From Pseudobdellovibrionaceae bacterium (GTDB lineage Bacteria; Bdellovibrionota; Bdellovibrionia; Bdellovibrionales; Bdellovibrionaceae), in contig JBIKLL010000087.1 of the NCBI GenBank assembly GCA_044359815.1, positions 1 to 10,087 on the forward strand: a stretch of 10,087 nucleotides of DNA, given 5' to 3'. Positions 1 to 6,000 of this stretch are shown in pieces (within the stretch, counting starts at the first letter, position 1; each line of letters starts with the position of its first letter). A program made the position numbers.

Positions 1-3000
1 CAGATGGCGAACTGTTTATGGTCCACGGTGGGTTTTATTATCAGGTTTTGAAAAAGAAATTTTATCCCGGCGAACTGCCAAAGACTCTGCACTGGTTTAA
101 ATGGGAAGCGACAATAACTTGGATCACCGGAATCTTTTTATTTTTCCTGATGTATTATCTCAACGGTGCCGGATTAATGCTTTCTGCAAAACTGAATCCG
201 ACGATGACCCAATTTCAAGTCATCGCAATGAGTCTATCAATTATAATCCTGAGCTGGCTTGTCTATGATTTTATTTGGCTGCCAAGATTTGAAAAATTCA
301 AATTTGTATCTTTGTTTATCTCAGTGTTTTTGTTTTTTGGAATTGTATTTTTAAACACCTATATGTTCAGTGGCCGAGGGGCCTATATTTTGACAGGCGT
401 CATTATGGGAACCATGATGGTTTTAAATGTTTGGGTCAGGATATTGCCTGGGCAACGGAAAATGTTAGCGCAAGCTGAATCAGGACAGATACCCGATTAT
501 TCATTGGGACTGAAAGCCAAAAGCCGAAGCATTCACAATACCTATTTTACCTTTCCTGTTTTACTGATCATGATTTCAAACCATTATGCTTTTTTGTATA
601 ACTCTGAAAACAACGGATTGTTTTTGATTCTGTTAGCACTCAGTGGGGCTTTTATCCGCCATGCCATGGTTGCTCGTGAAAAAGCTTATCGCTGGCTATA
701 TGTGATCGGTTTTGGGATTTTATTTTACCTGTTTTATATTTCTGCACCCAAAACACAGACAATGATTCTCTCAGACAAAAATCCTGTCCCAGAATACAGT
801 CAAATCAAAGGCATTTTTCAAACTCACTGTTTAAGTTGCCATAGCAGCCAAAATACTGACAAGATTTTTACAGTGGCTCCGAAAAACTTTATTTTAGAAA
901 CAGAAGAACAGATCAAATTAAATGCAGCATCCATATATCAACGTGTTTGGGTAGACAGAAACATGCCTTTCAACAATCAAACTCAGATCACTGAGGCTGA
1001 ACGCGAAGCCATTGCTCGGTTTACTAAAAAACTCTGATCCTATTTATCCCACCATCTGGAAAAATTAAAACCTTTAGGTACCTGAATTTTTTTTGATTTT
1101 TTATTTTAAATATTTTTTTATTGCCCGCAAAGGGTTTCACAAAAGTCTTTGGAACTAACTGATCAAAACTGAGGGCTTCAAAATCACCGTCTTTGACCTT
1201 TGAGGCATCAATACCCTGGGGCGCATTTCCGGCCTCAATCGAAACAAATCGAGGATTGTTATTAACAAAATAACTAAAATCCAAAACGATTTCCTGAATA
1301 ACTGTTTTTTTGCAAAGCTCAATGATTACAAATTCACTATTACCCATCTGACGGCTTCTGGAATTTTCAAGACCATCAAACATATTTAGTGGCTCAAAGG
1401 GTGAAATCACCTGACTGGCCGGGGCATAGTGCTCGTTGCTGGCTGCAATGATTTTACCACCATTTAAACTGCAAGCCAGATCTTGGCTTTTATATTTTAA
1501 ATATTTCGGATCTAAAGCCAAGGTCATTGGCTTTTTAGTTTTTGGAATCAGGGCTTGAATCTTTTCACAAACAGCCCGCTCGGGTGGTTGAAACTGGGCT
1601 GCGATTTCATCTGGTAATTTCTCAAACAACTGAATCCGGCTGAGCCCACCATCAGGATAAATATTCACTCGTATTTTCGTGTAAGATTCACCTCTAGGAT
1701 TCAGTTTAATTTTTGTCGTTGAATGCCCCTCCATTTTAAACTGTGGCAAAATCGTCTGCCAGCTATCTGCAAATCCTTCCACACTGACCATGGGCGCTTG
1801 ATTGCCCAAATGAAATTCCGTGGACAGAAAAATAAAATTCACTTGGCTTTTTTTAATCAATTCAAACTCGGCACTGTCACAAGGTGATTGATTGTGTCTG
1901 GCACTTTCCCAAGAATCCATGATTTTACCCTGATTACCAAATAACCTTGGATCAAATGTGGGTTTACATGGGCTGATCAGATTCTCAGCCCTGGCAAATT
2001 TTTGATTGGAAACTTTTATGAGTTTTGCTTTTTGTAAAACATTAAACTGATTCAAGTCCATTAATACGCCATTGTCCCTGACAATTGATTCTGGCAGATC
2101 TGGCAAAAAGGCTTTGAATAACAAGTTTTTGTAACCTTGATTCACCTTTTGCTCAGTCGGAATATTTTCATCATCAAATGATTTCTGAAATTGATCAAAA
2201 TCAATCCCCGAAAACTCCATACTCTTAAGCAACAACTGCACAATTTCTGCTATTGCGTAAACACCTTCCTGATCAGCGTTGACCAGTACAGTGATAGTTT
2301 TTCCAAAATCTGGCCCCTGATAACAGCTTAAATAAATTGCCCTAAATCCATCATTGGCTCCTTGGTGCAACATGAACCGATTAGAGCCAGCTTCAATCAA
2401 AAATGTCCCTAATCCCGACAGGGCTTGCATAAAGTCTTTACTGCCAAAATCACATCCCCAAACCATTTGAACCACAAAATCATGCCAAGGATCTCTGGGA
2501 TTCACAAAGGCCCGCGCAAGCTTTGCATTAAATTGGCAAACAGCCATTGCACTTGCACTGAATCCCGCTGCAAACGCAGGAAATTTCAATAAAACAGAAT
2601 TACCGGCTTTTTTGCCAATGGCATGATTAGAATTTTGATTAAAATAAAACCCATGCTGTTTTAAAAACGGCGACAGAATTTTTTGTATGCTTTTTTTCTC
2701 GAGAGTCTCTAGTAAATGTTCCAGAATTAAAAAACCACCCCCCGAATAATTGAACTGAGTCCCGGGATCAGGATGACAATCAATAGCCTGATAGCCAAAC
2801 TGATCGGGGTTTAATAAAATTTTTGTAACTGATGGGAGCTGATTTTTAAAGCCACTGACATAATGTAAATTTAAAGCCGTGTGATTGAGCAAGCTTCTGA
2901 TCGGAACCTTTTTTGAAAGCTGCAGCTTAGATCCAGCTTTGCCCAGCCAATCATTGACCATATCATCCAAATCGATGCCTTTTTTCAAAAAATACTGCTG

Positions 3001-6000
3001 ACAAAAAATCGAGGCCACAGTTTTACTGAGACTGGCTATTTGAAACAGTTTTTTGGATTGAGGTCCAACACCAAATTGACTGCCATTCACAGAAACCTGT
3101 GCGGATTCCACACCATGCTTTTTTAAAATTTCAGAAATCTCTGTTTTTAAATCTAGCGAACTCTGTTGCTGCATTCTTTTGACAGTGATTTCTGCCAGTG
3201 CTTTCTTGGCATTCATCAACTCTTTGGCGGCAGAACCCTTAATACGCTGCTTTAAAGCCTTTAACATTTCTGCCGAGGACTTGCCCTTTGCTGAAATTAA
3301 AAACTTAAACCCAAATTTCTTCAGGTAATCTTGACCTAGTTTTTTTAACTCACTCCTGGATCTGTCATCCATATCTTGTTGAGCTCGAGCTTGCTCGCTG
3401 GTGGCCTGGGCATCTAAGGTTTTTGCGCTTTCACCAATATCACCATGAAAATGAGCAGCCTCGATCACTTGTTTTTTTGAAAACTGCATAATGCAATCAG
3501 AAATATCAGCCTGATCATAAAAATCAGTTTCCGACATTTTGTCTGCAAACCATTGGCAGGAACACAATTCATAAAAATAATCCCAATCCCTAATTTCTTT
3601 AGGCAGCTTTAAAAGTTCAGGCCGATCCGACTGGATTTTTTTAAGAGGATCAATTGAATTTCTGGCACCCTCATCAGTAAATGGCATCAAAAGCTCACTG
3701 ACAAATTCGCAGGGGTTTGAATCAAAAACCAATTTCATAAAAATCAATTTTGCAGTGGGATACCATTTAGCTGTTTCCTGGTTCCATTTTACGGCGACTA
3801 TTTTTTGTTTGTTTGAAAAATCTTTTCTGATAAACAGCAATTCCTGATGAATGATTTTTATCAGTTCAGTTTTTTTAAACCTGCTATGATAAATTTCGTG
3901 CCAGACTTCCCAGCGCGACCGTTCACAGGTGGCCAGATCATCCATAACCCTGACTGCCGTCCCGCCAATATTAGCAGGCAGGGCCACACAACCATTGCCA
4001 CACAACCAATCTGCTAAATACTGCAAACTCTGAAAAACATTGTATCTGATTTCATCAGGATGATTGTTTGCAATAAAATCAGATTTTTTAATGTCACAGA
4101 CTATTAGTTTATTAATTTCGATATCTGAATTTAGCTTGGATGGGGATTTTTTAGCACCCACAGCTTTTTTGGCAGGCAATTTTTTCTTTTGATCTGATAG
4201 GTTTTTGATTAATCCTAAAATTTCCGTTTGGTGCTTTGCTTTCAGAAACGCTTTAACAAGGGATTTTAAATCTGCAGAATTATTTTTATAACTCCAAACC
4301 AGGGCCAGTCCCAGTCTGACAAAATCTGGATGAGCCACCCAAAAACCATCCAGGCCCCGGGATAATTGTATAATCACATCCTTAAAAAAACCTTTTAGCG
4401 TCAGTTGATAACTGTCTGAAAATAAATCTTTACCCAACGGCAGAACCCCATACATTCCGCCAATTTTGATTCCACCCCTATCACCCACGACCTGTGACAA
4501 CAATCGATGGGAAGCCGCTATGTGTTTGATAACGATTTCCGGATCAGCCTTTACGGGTATTCTGTATTGGGAATCAAATCTGGACAGCCTGGCCATGGAG
4601 GCTAAAAAATCATGCCACCCCAAAGAGGCTCCTGCAAAATAGGGATCCAATGCGGTTATGATTTCATTGGCTCGCAATATGGCCCTGGGGTTTTCCAATA
4701 CAATCATCAATTTCACTGTGCCCATTTTGTAATTTGGATTTATTGATTGGATTTTTTCTTCGGCCCTATGAATCAATAATTTAACATAAGAAGCTTCTTC
4801 TTCATTTTCGATCTTGGGAATATAAAAACACAATGCCTCTGGAAAATTTTGATTTTCAAATAAATGGTTGGCGAAATCCCACAGATGCAAAGGGGCCTGC
4901 AAATGCAAAAAATTTCCCTGCAATGCCAAACCTGGAATGCGCTTTATGGGCTTCGCTAAATGTGTGGCTTGCAATCTGTACTGCTGGCTGTCTGAAACAA
5001 CATTTAAAGTTTTGTTAAAGCATTTGTTGAGGTTTTTCTGAGCGATCAATAAATCCTGCATTAATGGAGTTTTTGAATCTTCGTCGTCAGCTCCCCAAAA
5101 CGGGATCAAATCTGATTTGGCTAAAATTTCTGCCAGTATTTCAGGTTCCTGGGGAAGTTTTCGGTGGTAGGAATTCATGGCATTAATACAAAGCTTGGCA
5201 TCCCCTGGCGGACCAAACAAAGTCACATGGGGGCCTTGTATAAATTCAGGTATATTTTTAACGGGATCACCATAGCCACGATCAAAATGATTATTTCTGG
5301 GACCAAAAACAATGCGGCCCTCGGAATCCGTCTGACCAATCACTCTCATGTAATCCGGATGATCAGGAGTTAAACCCAACTGCTGATTGAATTGTGAAAT
5401 CACTTTCACACGCTCATCGATAAAAGCTCGGTCTTGAACCCTTTGCTTGAGCACTTTTTCGTAGTCTGTTTTTATCTGATCATAGAGCCAACTGACAAAA
5501 GACTCAGCTGTGCGCATACTTATGATCCACGGTAGGTGGAATAGCCAAAGGGATTTAACAACAAGGGTACGTGATAATTTCGTTTTGAATCTGAAACTTT
5601 AAAGCAGACTTCGGTGTTATTAAAAAATGAAGGTATTTGTTTTTTACTGAAATAATCTTGTGTTTCGAAGGTCAGTTTGAAATCACCCGCCTGGGCTGTA
5701 AAATCAAATTTAATCCGCCCATCGCTGTTGGTTTTGTCAGTGGCAATAACCTTCCAGGTATCTGCGGTTTTGATTTCAAGTTTTACTTTAACACCAGATG
5801 CAGGTTCCCCGCAGCTGGTGTCCAAGATATGGGTGCTAATCATAGGTTCCTAAAATCCAAATCCAAATTTACCTGTGACACTGCTGGTATCAAAAGCTTT
5901 TGAATATTCAACCCCCAAAGACATCAAAACCAATTTTGCATTGAAGCCCACAATCAACTGTGTGGTCGATACCTTGGTGCTTGATGCTTGTGCTGAAGTC

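What a model noticed while it worked through the whole genome (the two positions that open the first line are those of the whole stretch)
1024..5843. Five-domain uricolysis-to-malate megaenzyme with a beta-lactamase-fold domain in the allantoinase slot
g02561 (1,497 aa) fuses a divergent malate-synthase module, an OHCU decarboxylase, a serine beta-lactamase/DD-peptidase-fold domain and a two-repeat allantoicase in one chain, next to HIU hydrolase (g02562) and a PuuD-type urate oxidase (g02560). I read it as a single-polypeptide assembly line from OHCU to malate in which the beta-lactamase-fold domain, sitting between the enzymes of the step before and the step after, is a third, so far unknown kind of allantoinase (ring-opening of the cyclic amide allantoin). 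If true it adds a new allantoinase class and the longest known natural fusion of the purine-degradation pathway, used by predatory bacteria to turn prey purines into C4 carbon.
Evidence so far: Pfam rows (pfam.tsv; calls 38, 39): MS_TIM-barrel 225-404, MS_C 488-606, OHCU_decarbox 653-782 (E 8e-22), Beta-lactamase 818-948 (E 8e-12), Allantoicase 1164-1298 and 1353-1497. Gene order g02560 Urate_ox_N / g02561 / g02562 Transthyretin-HIUase (3-nt spacer, same strand); xanthine dehydrogenase g00313-g00315 present. 478 homologues of residues 640-1160 at E<=1e-3, the best 120 almost all 1,480-1,580 aa with the same five Pfam families, sources naming Bdellovibrionales, Bacteriovoracaceae, Halobacteriovorax, Oligoflexus; named only 'serine hydrolase', 'malate synthase' or hypothetical; two shorter forms (871, 902 aa) keep OHCU decarboxylase + beta-lactamase + allantoicase without malate synt [...]
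(Added by a program. Inside this text positions count along the whole contig: contig position 1 is position 1 of the stretch shown here. "Call 12" and the like, gene names such as g00115 and contig names such as C1 are that model's own, and its searches are not shown. The text may have been shortened before it was handed on; [...] marks where a part breaks off. The agent that wrote the report below was given it as the finding of a first reader that could run no searches.)

Follow-up and report, generated by a model that had tools for sequence, protein, structure and literature searches.

The report
Fused urate-breakdown enzyme, candidate new allantoinase
One very long bacterial protein joins four enzymes of uric-acid breakdown, and its beta-lactamase-like part most likely does the allantoin ring-opening step with a protein fold never before linked to that reaction.

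Summary
Window 1024-5517(-) encodes a 1,497-aa protein with malate-synthase-like (MSL), OHCU decarboxylase, beta-lactamase-fold and allantoicase domains. HIU hydrolase lies 2 nt upstream and a PuuD urate oxidase is convergent.

The allantoinase reading is supported by comparative evidence, with no assay. In 401 genomes of the phylum, 95 carry allantoicase. Of these, 60 have the beta-lactamase-fold domain and 32 have AllB; only one has both. PuuE was found in none. The either/or split recurs within three genera. A dinoflagellate protein fuses the same domain to an AllA-type ureidoglycolate lyase and allantoicase, and 28 of 61 stand-alone homologues (several named ones from algae) end in a peroxisomal signal.

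The "to malate" part is doubtful. MSL, DUF6986 and AllA never co-occurred in the 95 allantoicase-bearing genomes, and a eukaryotic malate-synthase-like enzyme is a proven ureidoglycolate lyase. MSL therefore probably supplies that step. It keeps the malate-synthase catalytic residues, so malate synthesis is not excluded.

Six literature searches found nothing in print. This scan found the same fusion in three other genomes, with the same reading. Most likely: a new variant of a known pathway, using a third allantoinase fold.

The parts
1024..5517 (-). Gene for the 1,497-aa four-enzyme fusion protein (P0001)
   Evidence: Open frame; Pfam and NCBIfam domains; 478 homologues.
3598..5517 (-). Residues 1-640: malate-synthase-like (MSL) module, proposed ureidoglycolate lyase (malate synthase not excluded)
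   Evidence: PF01274 and PF20659. TIGR01344 scores 94.5 bits against a cut-off of 594.5. Aligned to E. coli MSA 3CUZ. The family keeps R193, E275, D303, W393 and D527, with invariant W301 and H302.
3163..3585 (-). Residues ~645-785: OHCU decarboxylase domain
   Evidence: PF09349 3.3e-21. PDB OHCU decarboxylases 5uou and 3o7h match. The invariant H..IGE, EQ and C-terminal R are shared with canonical enzymes.
2068..3150 (-). Residues ~790-1150: beta-lactamase/DD-peptidase (S12) fold serine hydrolase domain, proposed allantoinase
   Evidence: PF00144. AF2 model pLDDT 91.9. Foldseek probability 1.00 to FmtA-like protein, LACTB, R61 DD-peptidase and AmpC. S829-x-x-K832, Y924-S-G926, H1051-Q-G, N1055 and R1059 are conserved in the family.
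1027..2040 (-). Residues ~1160-1497: allantoicase, two repeats
   Evidence: PF03561 1.9e-53 with two stretches. PDB allantoicases 1o59 and 1sg3 at 3e-29.
5520..5843 (-). 5-hydroxyisourate hydrolase, 2 nt upstream of the fusion gene
   Evidence: TIGR02962 130.8 bits, over its cut-off. It ends in YRGS. The junction was read.
18..1037 (+). PuuD-type membrane cytochrome-c urate oxidase, convergent, 5' end cut by the contig start
   Evidence: PF06181 8e-65 starting at profile position 53. CxxCH at residue 271. The N-terminal piece lies on contig C91.
5850..6758 (-). DUF6588 protein with a signal-peptide-like start, 6 nt upstream of the HIUase start; possibly co-transcribed, role unknown
   Evidence: PF20230 3.5e-13; junction read. 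It is not seen next to the fusion in the two relatives' loci examined (L014, L015).

Best explanation
With PuuD urate oxidase and HIU hydrolase encoded beside it, the 1,497-aa protein completes a route from urate to glyoxylate plus two urea. The OHCU decarboxylase domain makes (S)-allantoin. The beta-lactamase-fold domain (Ser829/Lys832/Tyr924) opens the hydantoin ring to allantoate through an acyl-enzyme, so it would be an allantoinase unrelated to AllB and PuuE. The allantoicase domain releases urea and (S)-ureidoglycolate. The N-terminal malate-synthase-like module splits ureidoglycolate into glyoxylate and urea, and may also condense glyoxylate with acetyl-CoA. Shown here: the domain architecture, the conserved catalytic motifs and the phyletic and fusion patterns. 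Inferred: both new activities.
For: (1) Pathway hole. The own genome (91% complete) has XDH, PuuD, HIUase, OHCU decarboxylase and allantoicase. It has no AllB (the model hits only a dihydroorotase: 610 bits to NF006559, 263 to AllB), no PuuE, no AllA and no DUF6986.
(2) Allantoinase slot. In one 401-genome sample of the phylum, allantoicase occurs in 95 genomes. The beta-lactamase-fold domain occurs in 60 of them and AllB over its cut-off in 32; both occur only in G270, and neither in four genomes that are 83-90% complete. PuuE over its cut-off occurs in 0 of 401. Both types occur within genera g92, g158 and g108.
(3) Cluster subtraction. AllB-type clusters read PuuD-AllB-Alc-OHCU-HIUase-DUF6986 or AllA. 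Fusion-type clusters read PuuD-HIUase-[MSL-OHCU-betalac-Alc] with no other conserved neighbour.
(4) Ureidoglycolate lyase slot. Among 36 allantoicase genomes without the five-domain fusion (35 lacking the beta-lactamase-fold domain, plus G270), 29 have DUF6986, 4 have AllA, 2 have MSL and none has two types. Among the 58 other genomes with the domain, AllA occurs in 0 and DUF6986 in 0.
(5) Stand-alone MSL in other phyla. Of 80 loci, 38 have at least one of PuuD/AllB/Alc/OHCU/HIUase within 7 kb, 26 have at least three, and 25 have AllB. None has AllA, DUF6986 or a beta-lactamase-fold domain. MSL is therefore a pathway member that coexists with AllB, which leaves the allantoinase role to the beta-lactamase-fold domain.
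(6) Independent fusions. P0378 of the dinoflagellate Polykrikos kofoidii is betalac+AllA+allantoicase. Beta-lac+allantoicase fusions occur in bacteria, in Effrenium and in an Oithona record.
(7) Of 61 stand-alone homologues, 28 end in a PTS1 tripeptide and 21 in SKL. Named examples are Epipyxis, Mallomonas, Phaeocystis and Bigelowiella.
(8) Catalytic Ser-x-x-Lys, Tyr and His-x-Gly are conserved in the 50-sequence family alignment. The fold is confident.
(9) Precedent: zebrafish malate-synthase-like protein is a ureidoglycolate lyase (PMC10120013, sections 10 and 11 read).
Against: There is no biochemical assay of any family member. The beta-lactamase-fold and MSL modules are fused in nearly all of the 60 genomes, so the two complementarity patterns are not independent of each other, and related genomes are not independent samples. 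Which module fills which slot rests on the stand-alone MSL clusters, the Polykrikos fusion and the eukaryotic precedent.

G270 carries both AllB and a beta-lac+allantoicase gene. MSL keeps every malate-synthase catalytic residue I could map (R193, E275, D303, W393, D527) and the GP..K..INA.N segment. It does not show the W365M change of the zebrafish enzyme. Full-length MSA-type genes were found in only 21 of the 58 other fusion genomes and 10 of 29 DUF6986 genomes, but in 4 of 4 AllA genomes. That hints MSL and DUF6986 may also, or instead, act as malate synthases. Five MSL-cluster genomes of other phyla showed no MSA or MSG over cut-off, and one of them has isocitrate lyase. The YxN motif of the fold reads Y-S-G here, so the chemistry may differ from that of known relatives.
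Confidence: 0.55

Rival explanations
1. The beta-lactamase-fold domain is the allantoinase, but the N-terminal module is a genuine, divergent malate synthase. The chain then runs from OHCU to malate, and ureidoglycolate breaks down spontaneously or through a side activity.
For: The catalytic residues of malate synthase are all kept: R193, E275, D303, W393 and D527 match E. coli R166, E250, D278, W365 and D447. The residue roles are recalled from the malate-synthase literature, not tested here. The segment that I recall as contacting CoA (GP..K..INA.N) is conserved. Of the 58 other fusion genomes, 37 showed no other full-length MSA-type gene. Canonical MSA was found in 4 of 4 AllA genomes but only 10 of 29 DUF6986 genomes. 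Yeast DAL7 is a true malate synthase inside an allantoin gene cluster (recalled).
Against: AllA was found with MSL or DUF6986 in none of the 95 allantoicase-bearing genomes checked (own genome, 58 fusion genomes and the 36-genome set), which a pure malate synthase would not explain. The own genome already has a canonical MSA (663 bits) next to isocitrate lyase. In the Polykrikos fusion an AllA domain sits where bacteria have MSL. R276 and W277 beside the Mg ligand are invariably W and H, and about 9 residues are inserted before the catalytic loop. The eukaryotic precedent lost malate-synthase activity.
Confidence: 0.2
2. The beta-lactamase-fold domain is a hydrolase for another substrate (another ureide, a side product, or a peptide-like compound), and allantoin is opened by an unrecognised enzyme elsewhere in the genome.
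For: No assay exists. The closest solved structures are peptidases, amidases and esterases at 14-20% identity. The Asn of the YxN motif is replaced by Gly. G270 has both AllB and the domain. The own genome is only 91% complete.
Against: This requires an unseen allantoinase in 59 of 60 genomes that is missing exactly where AllB is present. No other conserved gene lies next to the fusion in the five fusion-type loci examined. A polysaccharide-deacetylase neighbour occurs only in G244 and has no homologue in the own genome. With AllA or MSL and allantoicase present, no other ureide step is unassigned.
Confidence: 0.15
3. The beta-lactamase-fold domain is a non-catalytic scaffold or regulatory, ligand-binding module of the fusion protein.
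For: Some members of the fold act as sensors or binding proteins (recalled). The domain lies between two catalytic domains.
Against: Ser-x-x-Lys, Tyr and His-x-Gly are at least 90% conserved or invariant across 50 sequences, including stand-alone eukaryotic forms. Stand-alone forms with peroxisomal signals exist. The either/or pattern with AllB needs a catalytic replacement.
Confidence: 0.05

Closest known systems
AllB (metal-dependent cyclic amidohydrolase) and PuuE (polysaccharide-deacetylase family), the two known allantoinase classes
   Same: The proposed reaction (allantoin to allantoate) and the pathway position. AllB-type clusters of sister genomes otherwise have the same gene set.
   Different: There is no sequence or fold relation. 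The domain matches PF00144, not Amidohydro_1 or Polysacc_deac_1. It would work through a serine acyl-enzyme without a metal. That only two classes are known is recalled, and it is consistent with six literature searches that found no third.
Family S12 / class C beta-lactamase-fold hydrolases (R61 DD-peptidase, D-amino-acid amidase, alkaline D-peptidase, LACTB, FmtA-like, AmpC)
   Same: The fold (Foldseek probability 1.00, TM 0.57-0.65); the Ser-x-x-Lys, Tyr and His-x-Gly motifs; and hydrolysis of amide bonds, cyclic ones included.
   Different: Identity is only 14-20%. The second motif is Y-S-G, not Y-x-N. The domain is cytoplasmic and fused to ureide enzymes. It forms a small discrete family: 67 representatives at E<=1e-30 among 1.84 billion, separated from other S12 relatives by a long, fully supported branch.
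Eukaryotic malate-synthase-like ureidoglycolate lyase (zebrafish DrMSL/UGL; PMC10120013)
   Same: A malate-synthase fold linked to allantoicase and uricase; the residue equivalent to E. coli R276 is replaced; there is an insertion near the catalytic loop; a canonical malate synthase is present separately in the own genome.
   Different: The paper states that its UGL group holds only eukaryotic sequences. Here R276 becomes W (Ile in zebrafish), W365 is kept (Met in zebrafish), and the module is about 640-700 aa. Whether the acetyl-CoA site is lost could not be tested, and no eukaryotic UGL sequence was available for a tree.
Known uricolysis fusions (HIUase-OHCU decarboxylase 'allantoin synthase' of plants, diatoms and bacteria)
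   Same: Consecutive enzymes of urate breakdown joined in one chain (passages of PMC13751858).
   Different: Four activities are joined instead of two, HIUase is left separate, and the domain order does not follow the reaction order. The passages read do not mention this architecture.

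Membership tests
Beta-lactamase / DD-peptidase fold (Pfam PF00144, MEROPS S12-like) | Pfam model over its gathering score | tested here: met
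   43.1 bits against a cut-off of 27 for P0001, covering only 818-948. Relatives' domains match nearly the whole model, for example 830-1152 in G244.
Beta-lactamase / DD-peptidase fold (Pfam PF00144, MEROPS S12-like) | The fold itself | tested here: met
   AF2 pLDDT 91.9, pTM 0.90. Foldseek probability 1.00 to 4gdn, 7v21, 1ikg, 3pte and AmpC entries.
Beta-lactamase / DD-peptidase fold (Pfam PF00144, MEROPS S12-like) | Ser-x-x-Lys nucleophile motif (motif definition recalled) | tested here: met
   S829-L-S-K832. At least 90% conserved in 50 sequences; the exceptions are N-terminally truncated rows.
Beta-lactamase / DD-peptidase fold (Pfam PF00144, MEROPS S12-like) | Tyr-x-Asn second motif (definition recalled) | tested here: not met
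   Tyr924 is invariant, but the third position is an invariant Gly, giving Y-S-G-G-G.
Beta-lactamase / DD-peptidase fold (Pfam PF00144, MEROPS S12-like) | His/Lys-x-Gly third motif (definition recalled) | tested here: met
   H1051-Q-G in P0001. H is invariant and Q at least 90% conserved; they are followed by invariant N1055, G1057 and R1059.
AllB allantoinase (TIGR03178) | Match to the equivalog model over its cut-off | tested here: not met
   P0001 has no such match. The only genome hit is a dihydroorotase at 263 bits against a cut-off of 357.85.
PuuE allantoinase (TIGR03212) | Match to the model | tested here: not met
   No hit in the own genome. None over the cut-off in 401 genomes.
Malate synthase A (TIGR01344) | Equivalog score | tested here: not met
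   94.5 bits against a cut-off of 594.5. The own genome's true MSA scores 663.3.
Malate synthase A (TIGR01344) | Catalytic Arg, two Mg ligands and catalytic Asp (E. coli R166, E250, D278, D447; roles recalled) | tested here: met
   R193, E275, D303 and D527 align and are 99-100% conserved in 124 family members.
Malate synthase A (TIGR01344) | Acetyl-CoA binding site | not testable with these tools
   No ligand-contact data could be read: Lohman 2008 is not held and the PNAS supplement is unreadable. Only a recalled contact segment (GP..K..INA.N) is seen to be conserved.
Eukaryotic MS-like ureidoglycolate lyase (UGL group of PMC10120013) | Arg276 replaced | tested here: met
   The equivalent residue is W301, invariant in the family; zebrafish has Ile.
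Eukaryotic MS-like ureidoglycolate lyase (UGL group of PMC10120013) | Trp365 replaced by Met | tested here: not met
   W393 is kept and 100% conserved.
Eukaryotic MS-like ureidoglycolate lyase (UGL group of PMC10120013) | 2-aa insertion at the interface of the glyoxylate and acetyl-CoA sites; membership of the UGL clade in a tree | tested here: inconclusive
   An insertion of about 9 aa lies just before the catalytic-Asp loop. Its equivalence to the zebrafish insertion is unknown. No eukaryotic UGL sequence was available for a tree.
Allantoicase (PF03561 / TIGR02961) | Two allantoicase repeats | tested here: met
   Two stretches, 180.8 bits against a cut-off of 27. The equivalog model scores 185.4, below its cut-off of 277.9, so the domain is divergent.
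OHCU decarboxylase (PF09349) | Pfam model plus conserved His/Glu/Arg positions (roles recalled) | tested here: met
   76.9 bits against a cut-off of 24. The invariant H, EQ and C-terminal R are shared with canonical enzymes. The TIGR03180 score of 70 is below its cut-off of 139.4.

The most novel reading that the evidence does not exclude
Uricolysis has been rebuilt with analogous enzymes several times. (a) A discrete branch of the beta-lactamase/DD-peptidase fold is a third, metal-free class of allantoinase. It is shared by predatory Bdellovibrio-like bacteria, where it is fused into a four-enzyme protein, and by marine and freshwater protists, where it is peroxisomal, stand-alone or fused to allantoicase. 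This would fill an unnoticed allantoinase gap in those eukaryotes. (b) Two bacterial branches of the malate-synthase/CitE fold, the ~680-aa MSL family and DUF6986, are ureidoglycolate lyases, possibly bifunctional enzymes that pass glyoxylate on to malate in the same active site.
Probability: 0.45. Interest if true: 0.85.

Novelty: new variant of a known kind. Interest (0 to 1): 0.75.

Why it matters
Allantoinase is currently known in two unrelated forms. A third form, built on the penicillin-recognising serine hydrolase fold, would be a clear case of non-homologous replacement in a textbook pathway. It would extend the chemistry of that fold to hydantoin ring opening. It would also correct the annotation of hundreds of proteins now called 'serine hydrolase', 'malate synthase' or 'CubicO group peptidase'.

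The same analysis assigns a pathway role to two further unannotated families: bacterial MSL, with 425 relatives in species genomes, and DUF6986. It extends the recent eukaryotic finding of malate-synthase-like ureidoglycolate lyases to bacteria. The peroxisomal eukaryotic homologues suggest how some algae and dinoflagellates recycle purine nitrogen. A four-enzyme natural fusion is also a compact starting point for engineered urate or allantoin degradation. All of this is directly testable with established assays.

Tried and rejected
1. Divergent PuuE as a hidden allantoinase. A 299-aa Polysacc_deac_1 gene follows the fusion in G244. It has a secretion-type N-terminus, is not conserved in four other loci and has no homologue in the own genome. 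Rejected.

2. The AllB-like hit in the own genome is a dihydroorotase.

3. Apparent beta-lactamase-profile hits on allantoicase ORFs in the MSL loci matched only profile positions 511-657. These are allantoicase columns carried in from fused rows of alignment A1, so the hits are an artefact.

4. 'Split' forms in G107 and G372 cut the OHCU domain between two ORFs and look like frameshifts. G348 is cut by a contig end. The ~1,000-aa 'OHCU+betalac+Alc' representatives P0333 and P0335 share 90% clusters with 1,580-aa and 1,518-aa members.

5. In L005 I first picked a wrong-strand ORF. The DUF6986 gene is there on the + strand.

6. hhalign of DUF6986 against MSL gave only 36% probability. The link rests on the fold search and a weak BLASTP match.

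7. Both Atlas look-ups gave generic names only.

8. No RNA holder is listed for the stretch, so nothing can be said about expression.

9. The supplement of PMC10120013 could not be read, and Lohman et al. 2008 is not held. The acetyl-CoA contact residues therefore could not be checked.

10. No urease alpha subunit was found in the own genome. The fate of the urea is open.

12. The careful tree search did not finish. Only the quick tree is reported.

Full report
**Observation**

The window holds an uninterrupted 1,497-codon frame at 1024-5517 on the minus strand.
- MS_TIM-barrel 225-404
- MS_C 488-606
- OHCU_decarbox 653-782
- Beta-lactamase 818-948
- two Allantoicase repeats, 1164-1298 and on to 1497

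NCBIfam and PDB sequence searches agree. All four enzyme-level models score below their equivalog cut-offs, so every module is divergent.

HIU hydrolase (5520-5843, minus strand) ends TAA, then GT, then the fusion's ATG. A PuuD-type cytochrome-c urate oxidase (18-1037, plus strand) is convergent and is cut by the contig start; its N-terminus is on contig C91.

The fusion is real. It is found in long single ORFs in most of 58 other genomes of the phylum, one of them assembled in a single contig. Contigs from three other lake-water runs tile the region without a difference.

**What is missing in this genome**

The assembly (2.95 Mb, 91% complete) has xanthine dehydrogenase genes on C14 and a canonical malate synthase A next to isocitrate lyase on C25.
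- The AllB model hits only a dihydroorotase.
- PuuE, AllA-type ureidoglycolate lyase and urease alpha give nothing.
- DUF6986 gives nothing by local tblastn.

Two steps of the classical route therefore lack a known gene: allantoinase and ureidoglycolate lyase. Two modules of the fusion lack an assigned step: the beta-lactamase-fold domain and the malate-synthase-like module (MSL).

**The allantoinase slot**

I searched one fixed sample of 401 genomes of the same phylum four times.

| Feature | Genomes (of 401) |
|---|---|
| Allantoicase | 95 |
| Beta-lactamase-fold domain (all within the 95) | 60 |
| AllB over its cut-off (all within the 95) | 32 |
| PuuE over its cut-off | 0 |

- Only G270 has both the domain and AllB.
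- Of the 35 allantoicase genomes without the domain, 31 have AllB, usually adjacent to allantoicase.
- The other four are 83-90% complete.
- Both types occur within genera g92, g158 and g108 and within families f20, f23 and f30. The switch has therefore happened more than once, although related genomes are not independent samples.

**Cluster comparison**

- AllB-type clusters read PuuD-AllB-allantoicase-OHCU decarboxylase-HIUase. They are followed by DUF6986 (G066, G165, G350; in G091 it lies two genes after allantoicase), or AllA stands beside the cluster (G041).
- Fusion-type clusters read PuuD-HIUase-fusion, with no other conserved neighbour.
- A polysaccharide-deacetylase gene after the fusion in G244 raised the possibility of a hidden PuuE. 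It is not conserved and has no homologue in the own genome.

**The ureidoglycolate-lyase slot**

Counts among allantoicase-bearing genomes of the sample:

| Genome set | DUF6986 | AllA | MSL | None of the three |
|---|---|---|---|---|
| 36 without the five-domain fusion (the 35 above plus G270) | 29 | 4 | 2 | 1 (74% complete) |
| 58 other genomes with the domain | 0 | 0 | weak MSA-model hit in the fused ORF in 56 | n/a |

No genome in the 36-genome set has two of the three types.

AllA is an established ureidoglycolate lyase. DUF6986 turned out to be a distant member of the malate-synthase/CitE superfamily. A BLASTP alignment of the metal-ligand motifs gives E 0.008. The AF2 model has pLDDT 86.2, and its best PDB matches are E. 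coli malate synthase A, malyl-CoA lyases, CLYBL and Haloferax malate synthase.

**MSL outside this phylum**

A scan of species genomes with stand-alone MSL proteins found 425 relatives. The best 80 loci come from records titled Myxococcota, Planctomycetota, Luteolibacter/Roseibacillus/Verrucomicrobiae (verrucomicrobia), Bradymonadales and others. With profiles built here:
- 38 of 80 loci carry at least one of PuuD, AllB, allantoicase, OHCU decarboxylase or HIUase within 7 kb.
- 26 of 80 carry at least three of these.
- 25 of 80 carry AllB.
- None carries AllA, DUF6986 or a true beta-lactamase-fold domain.

MSL is therefore a regular member of urate clusters and coexists with AllB. This separates its role from that of the beta-lactamase-fold domain and leaves the allantoinase slot to the latter. 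Other fusions seen in these loci (AllB+OHCU, allantoicase+OHCU, MSL+OHCU) show that pathway members fuse freely.

**Independent support from eukaryotes**

The domain alone finds 79 homologues. An exhaustive search of 1.84 billion representatives finds only 67 at E<=1e-30, so the family is small and discrete. It is separated from other S12 relatives by a fully supported branch in a quick tree.

Architectures seen:
- MSL-OHCU-betalac-allantoicase
- betalac-allantoicase
- betalac alone
- in the dinoflagellate Polykrikos kofoidii, betalac-AllA-allantoicase

In the last protein a classical ureidoglycolate lyase stands where bacteria have MSL. The beta-lactamase-fold domain is then the only part left to open allantoin.

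Of 61 stand-alone homologues, 28 end in a PTS1-type tripeptide and 21 in SKL, against 6 of 120 control proteins. Named members come from Epipyxis, Mallomonas, Phaeocystis, Bigelowiella, Amorphochlora, Aureococcus and Effrenium. In zebrafish, most urate-degrading enzymes are peroxisomal, though allantoinase is cytosolic (passages of PMC8919083).

**The domain itself**

The AF2 model is confident (pLDDT 91.9). It matches FmtA-like protein, LACTB, the R61 DD-peptidase, D-stereospecific amidohydrolases and AmpC with probability 1.00 but only 14-20% identity.

In a 50-sequence alignment:
- Y924-S-G926, H1051, N1055 and R1059 are invariant.
- S829-x-x-K832 is at least 90% conserved.

The Asn of the usual Tyr-x-Asn motif is always Gly. 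The protein has no signal peptide. I infer an acyl-enzyme mechanism on the hydantoin carbonyl, analogous to beta-lactam opening. This is inference only.

**What MSL does**

Aligned to E. coli malate synthase A, and across 124 family members:
- R193, E275, D303, W393 and D527 are conserved. They correspond to R166, E250, D278, W365 and D447.
- The residues equivalent to R276 and W277 are invariably W and H.
- About nine residues are inserted before the catalytic loop.

The zebrafish malate-synthase-like enzyme is a ureidoglycolate lyase with no malate-synthase activity. It has R276I, W365M, a 2-aa insertion and a degenerate acetyl-CoA site, and its clade was reported as eukaryote-only (PMC10120013, sections 10 and 11 read).

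The bacterial family shares the first trait but not the second. I could not test the acetyl-CoA site.

Against a pure lyase reading, canonical or near-canonical MSA was found in:
- 21 of the 58 other fusion genomes
- 10 of 29 DUF6986 genomes
- 4 of 4 AllA genomes

Five MSL-cluster genomes of other phyla showed no MSA or MSG over cut-off, and one of them has isocitrate lyase.

The pattern fits best if MSL and DUF6986 supply the lyase step and perhaps also consume glyoxylate. My estimates are about 0.6 for lyase activity, 0.5 for retained synthase activity and 0.3 for both.

**Literature and earlier scan notes**

Six full-text searches found nothing on a beta-lactamase-fold allantoinase, a bacterial malate-synthase-like ureidoglycolate lyase, DUF6986, or uricolysis in Bdellovibrio-like bacteria. 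A 2026 review discusses only HIUase-OHCU fusions in the passages I read.

After reaching my reading I found that this scan had noted the same fusion in three other genomes, with the same interpretation. These are unchecked AI notes, not independent evidence.

**Verdict**

The allantoinase hypothesis is the best-supported explanation (about 0.7 for that claim alone, 0.55 for the full four-step reading). The 'to malate' end is uncertain and more likely ends at glyoxylate. Everything awaits a simple enzyme assay.

Noticed in passing
L006:11071-12477 (+), L007:10605-11975 (+), L004:9761-11116 (+); 29 of 36 genomes: DUF6986 (PF22484, ~430-480 aa, no literature) sits at the end of AllB-type urate clusters. 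It was never found together with AllA or MSL. Its predicted structure best matches malate synthase A, malyl-CoA lyases and CLYBL. It is a candidate bacterial ureidoglycolate lyase or glyoxylate-handling enzyme.
   Followed up: yes
window 5850-6758 (-): A DUF6588 protein with a signal-peptide-like start and a C-terminal GFGF ends 6 nt before the HIUase start codon. It may be an outer-membrane channel co-transcribed with the urate genes. It is not next to the fusion in the two relatives' loci examined.
   Followed up: no
window 1-1037 (+) and contig C91:12545-12691: The PuuD urate oxidase gene is split by a contig break. The window starts inside the gene, and residues ~9-57 lie at the end of another contig.
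   Followed up: partly
L010 (G270:C12:1-12000): An unusual cluster: PuuD, a betalac+allantoicase fusion (772 aa), two class-V aminotransferases (the better one BhcA-like, 207 bits), a single-repeat allantoicase ORF (166 aa) and a stand-alone MSL (735 aa). The same genome also has AllB and a canonical allantoicase elsewhere, and a second MSL copy.
   Followed up: partly
L020, L030, L045, L059, L075; L036, L039, L052; L038, L053, L060, L069, L071, L084: Other pathway fusions in other phyla: AllB+OHCU decarboxylase (records titled Pirellulaceae or Mariniblastus), allantoicase+OHCU decarboxylase (L036 titled Myxococcales; L039 and L052 titled otherwise) and MSL+OHCU decarboxylase (Luteolibacter/Verrucomicrobiae records).
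   Followed up: partly
P0465 (926 aa), in the cluster of P0370: A betalac+allantoicase fusion is on record for the copepod Oithona nana genome. Whether it is an animal gene or comes from associated protists or contamination is open.
   Followed up: no
window 8968-9528 (-): A 186-aa ORF with a weak AP2-domain match (28 bits, below the cut-off of 33.3). The neighbouring ORFs at 7811-8971 (+), 9534-10028 (+) and 7268-7729 (-) match no family.
   Followed up: no
whole genome G000: No urease alpha subunit was found, although the route releases two urea per urate. The organism may excrete urea or use another urea-splitting system.
   Followed up: partly
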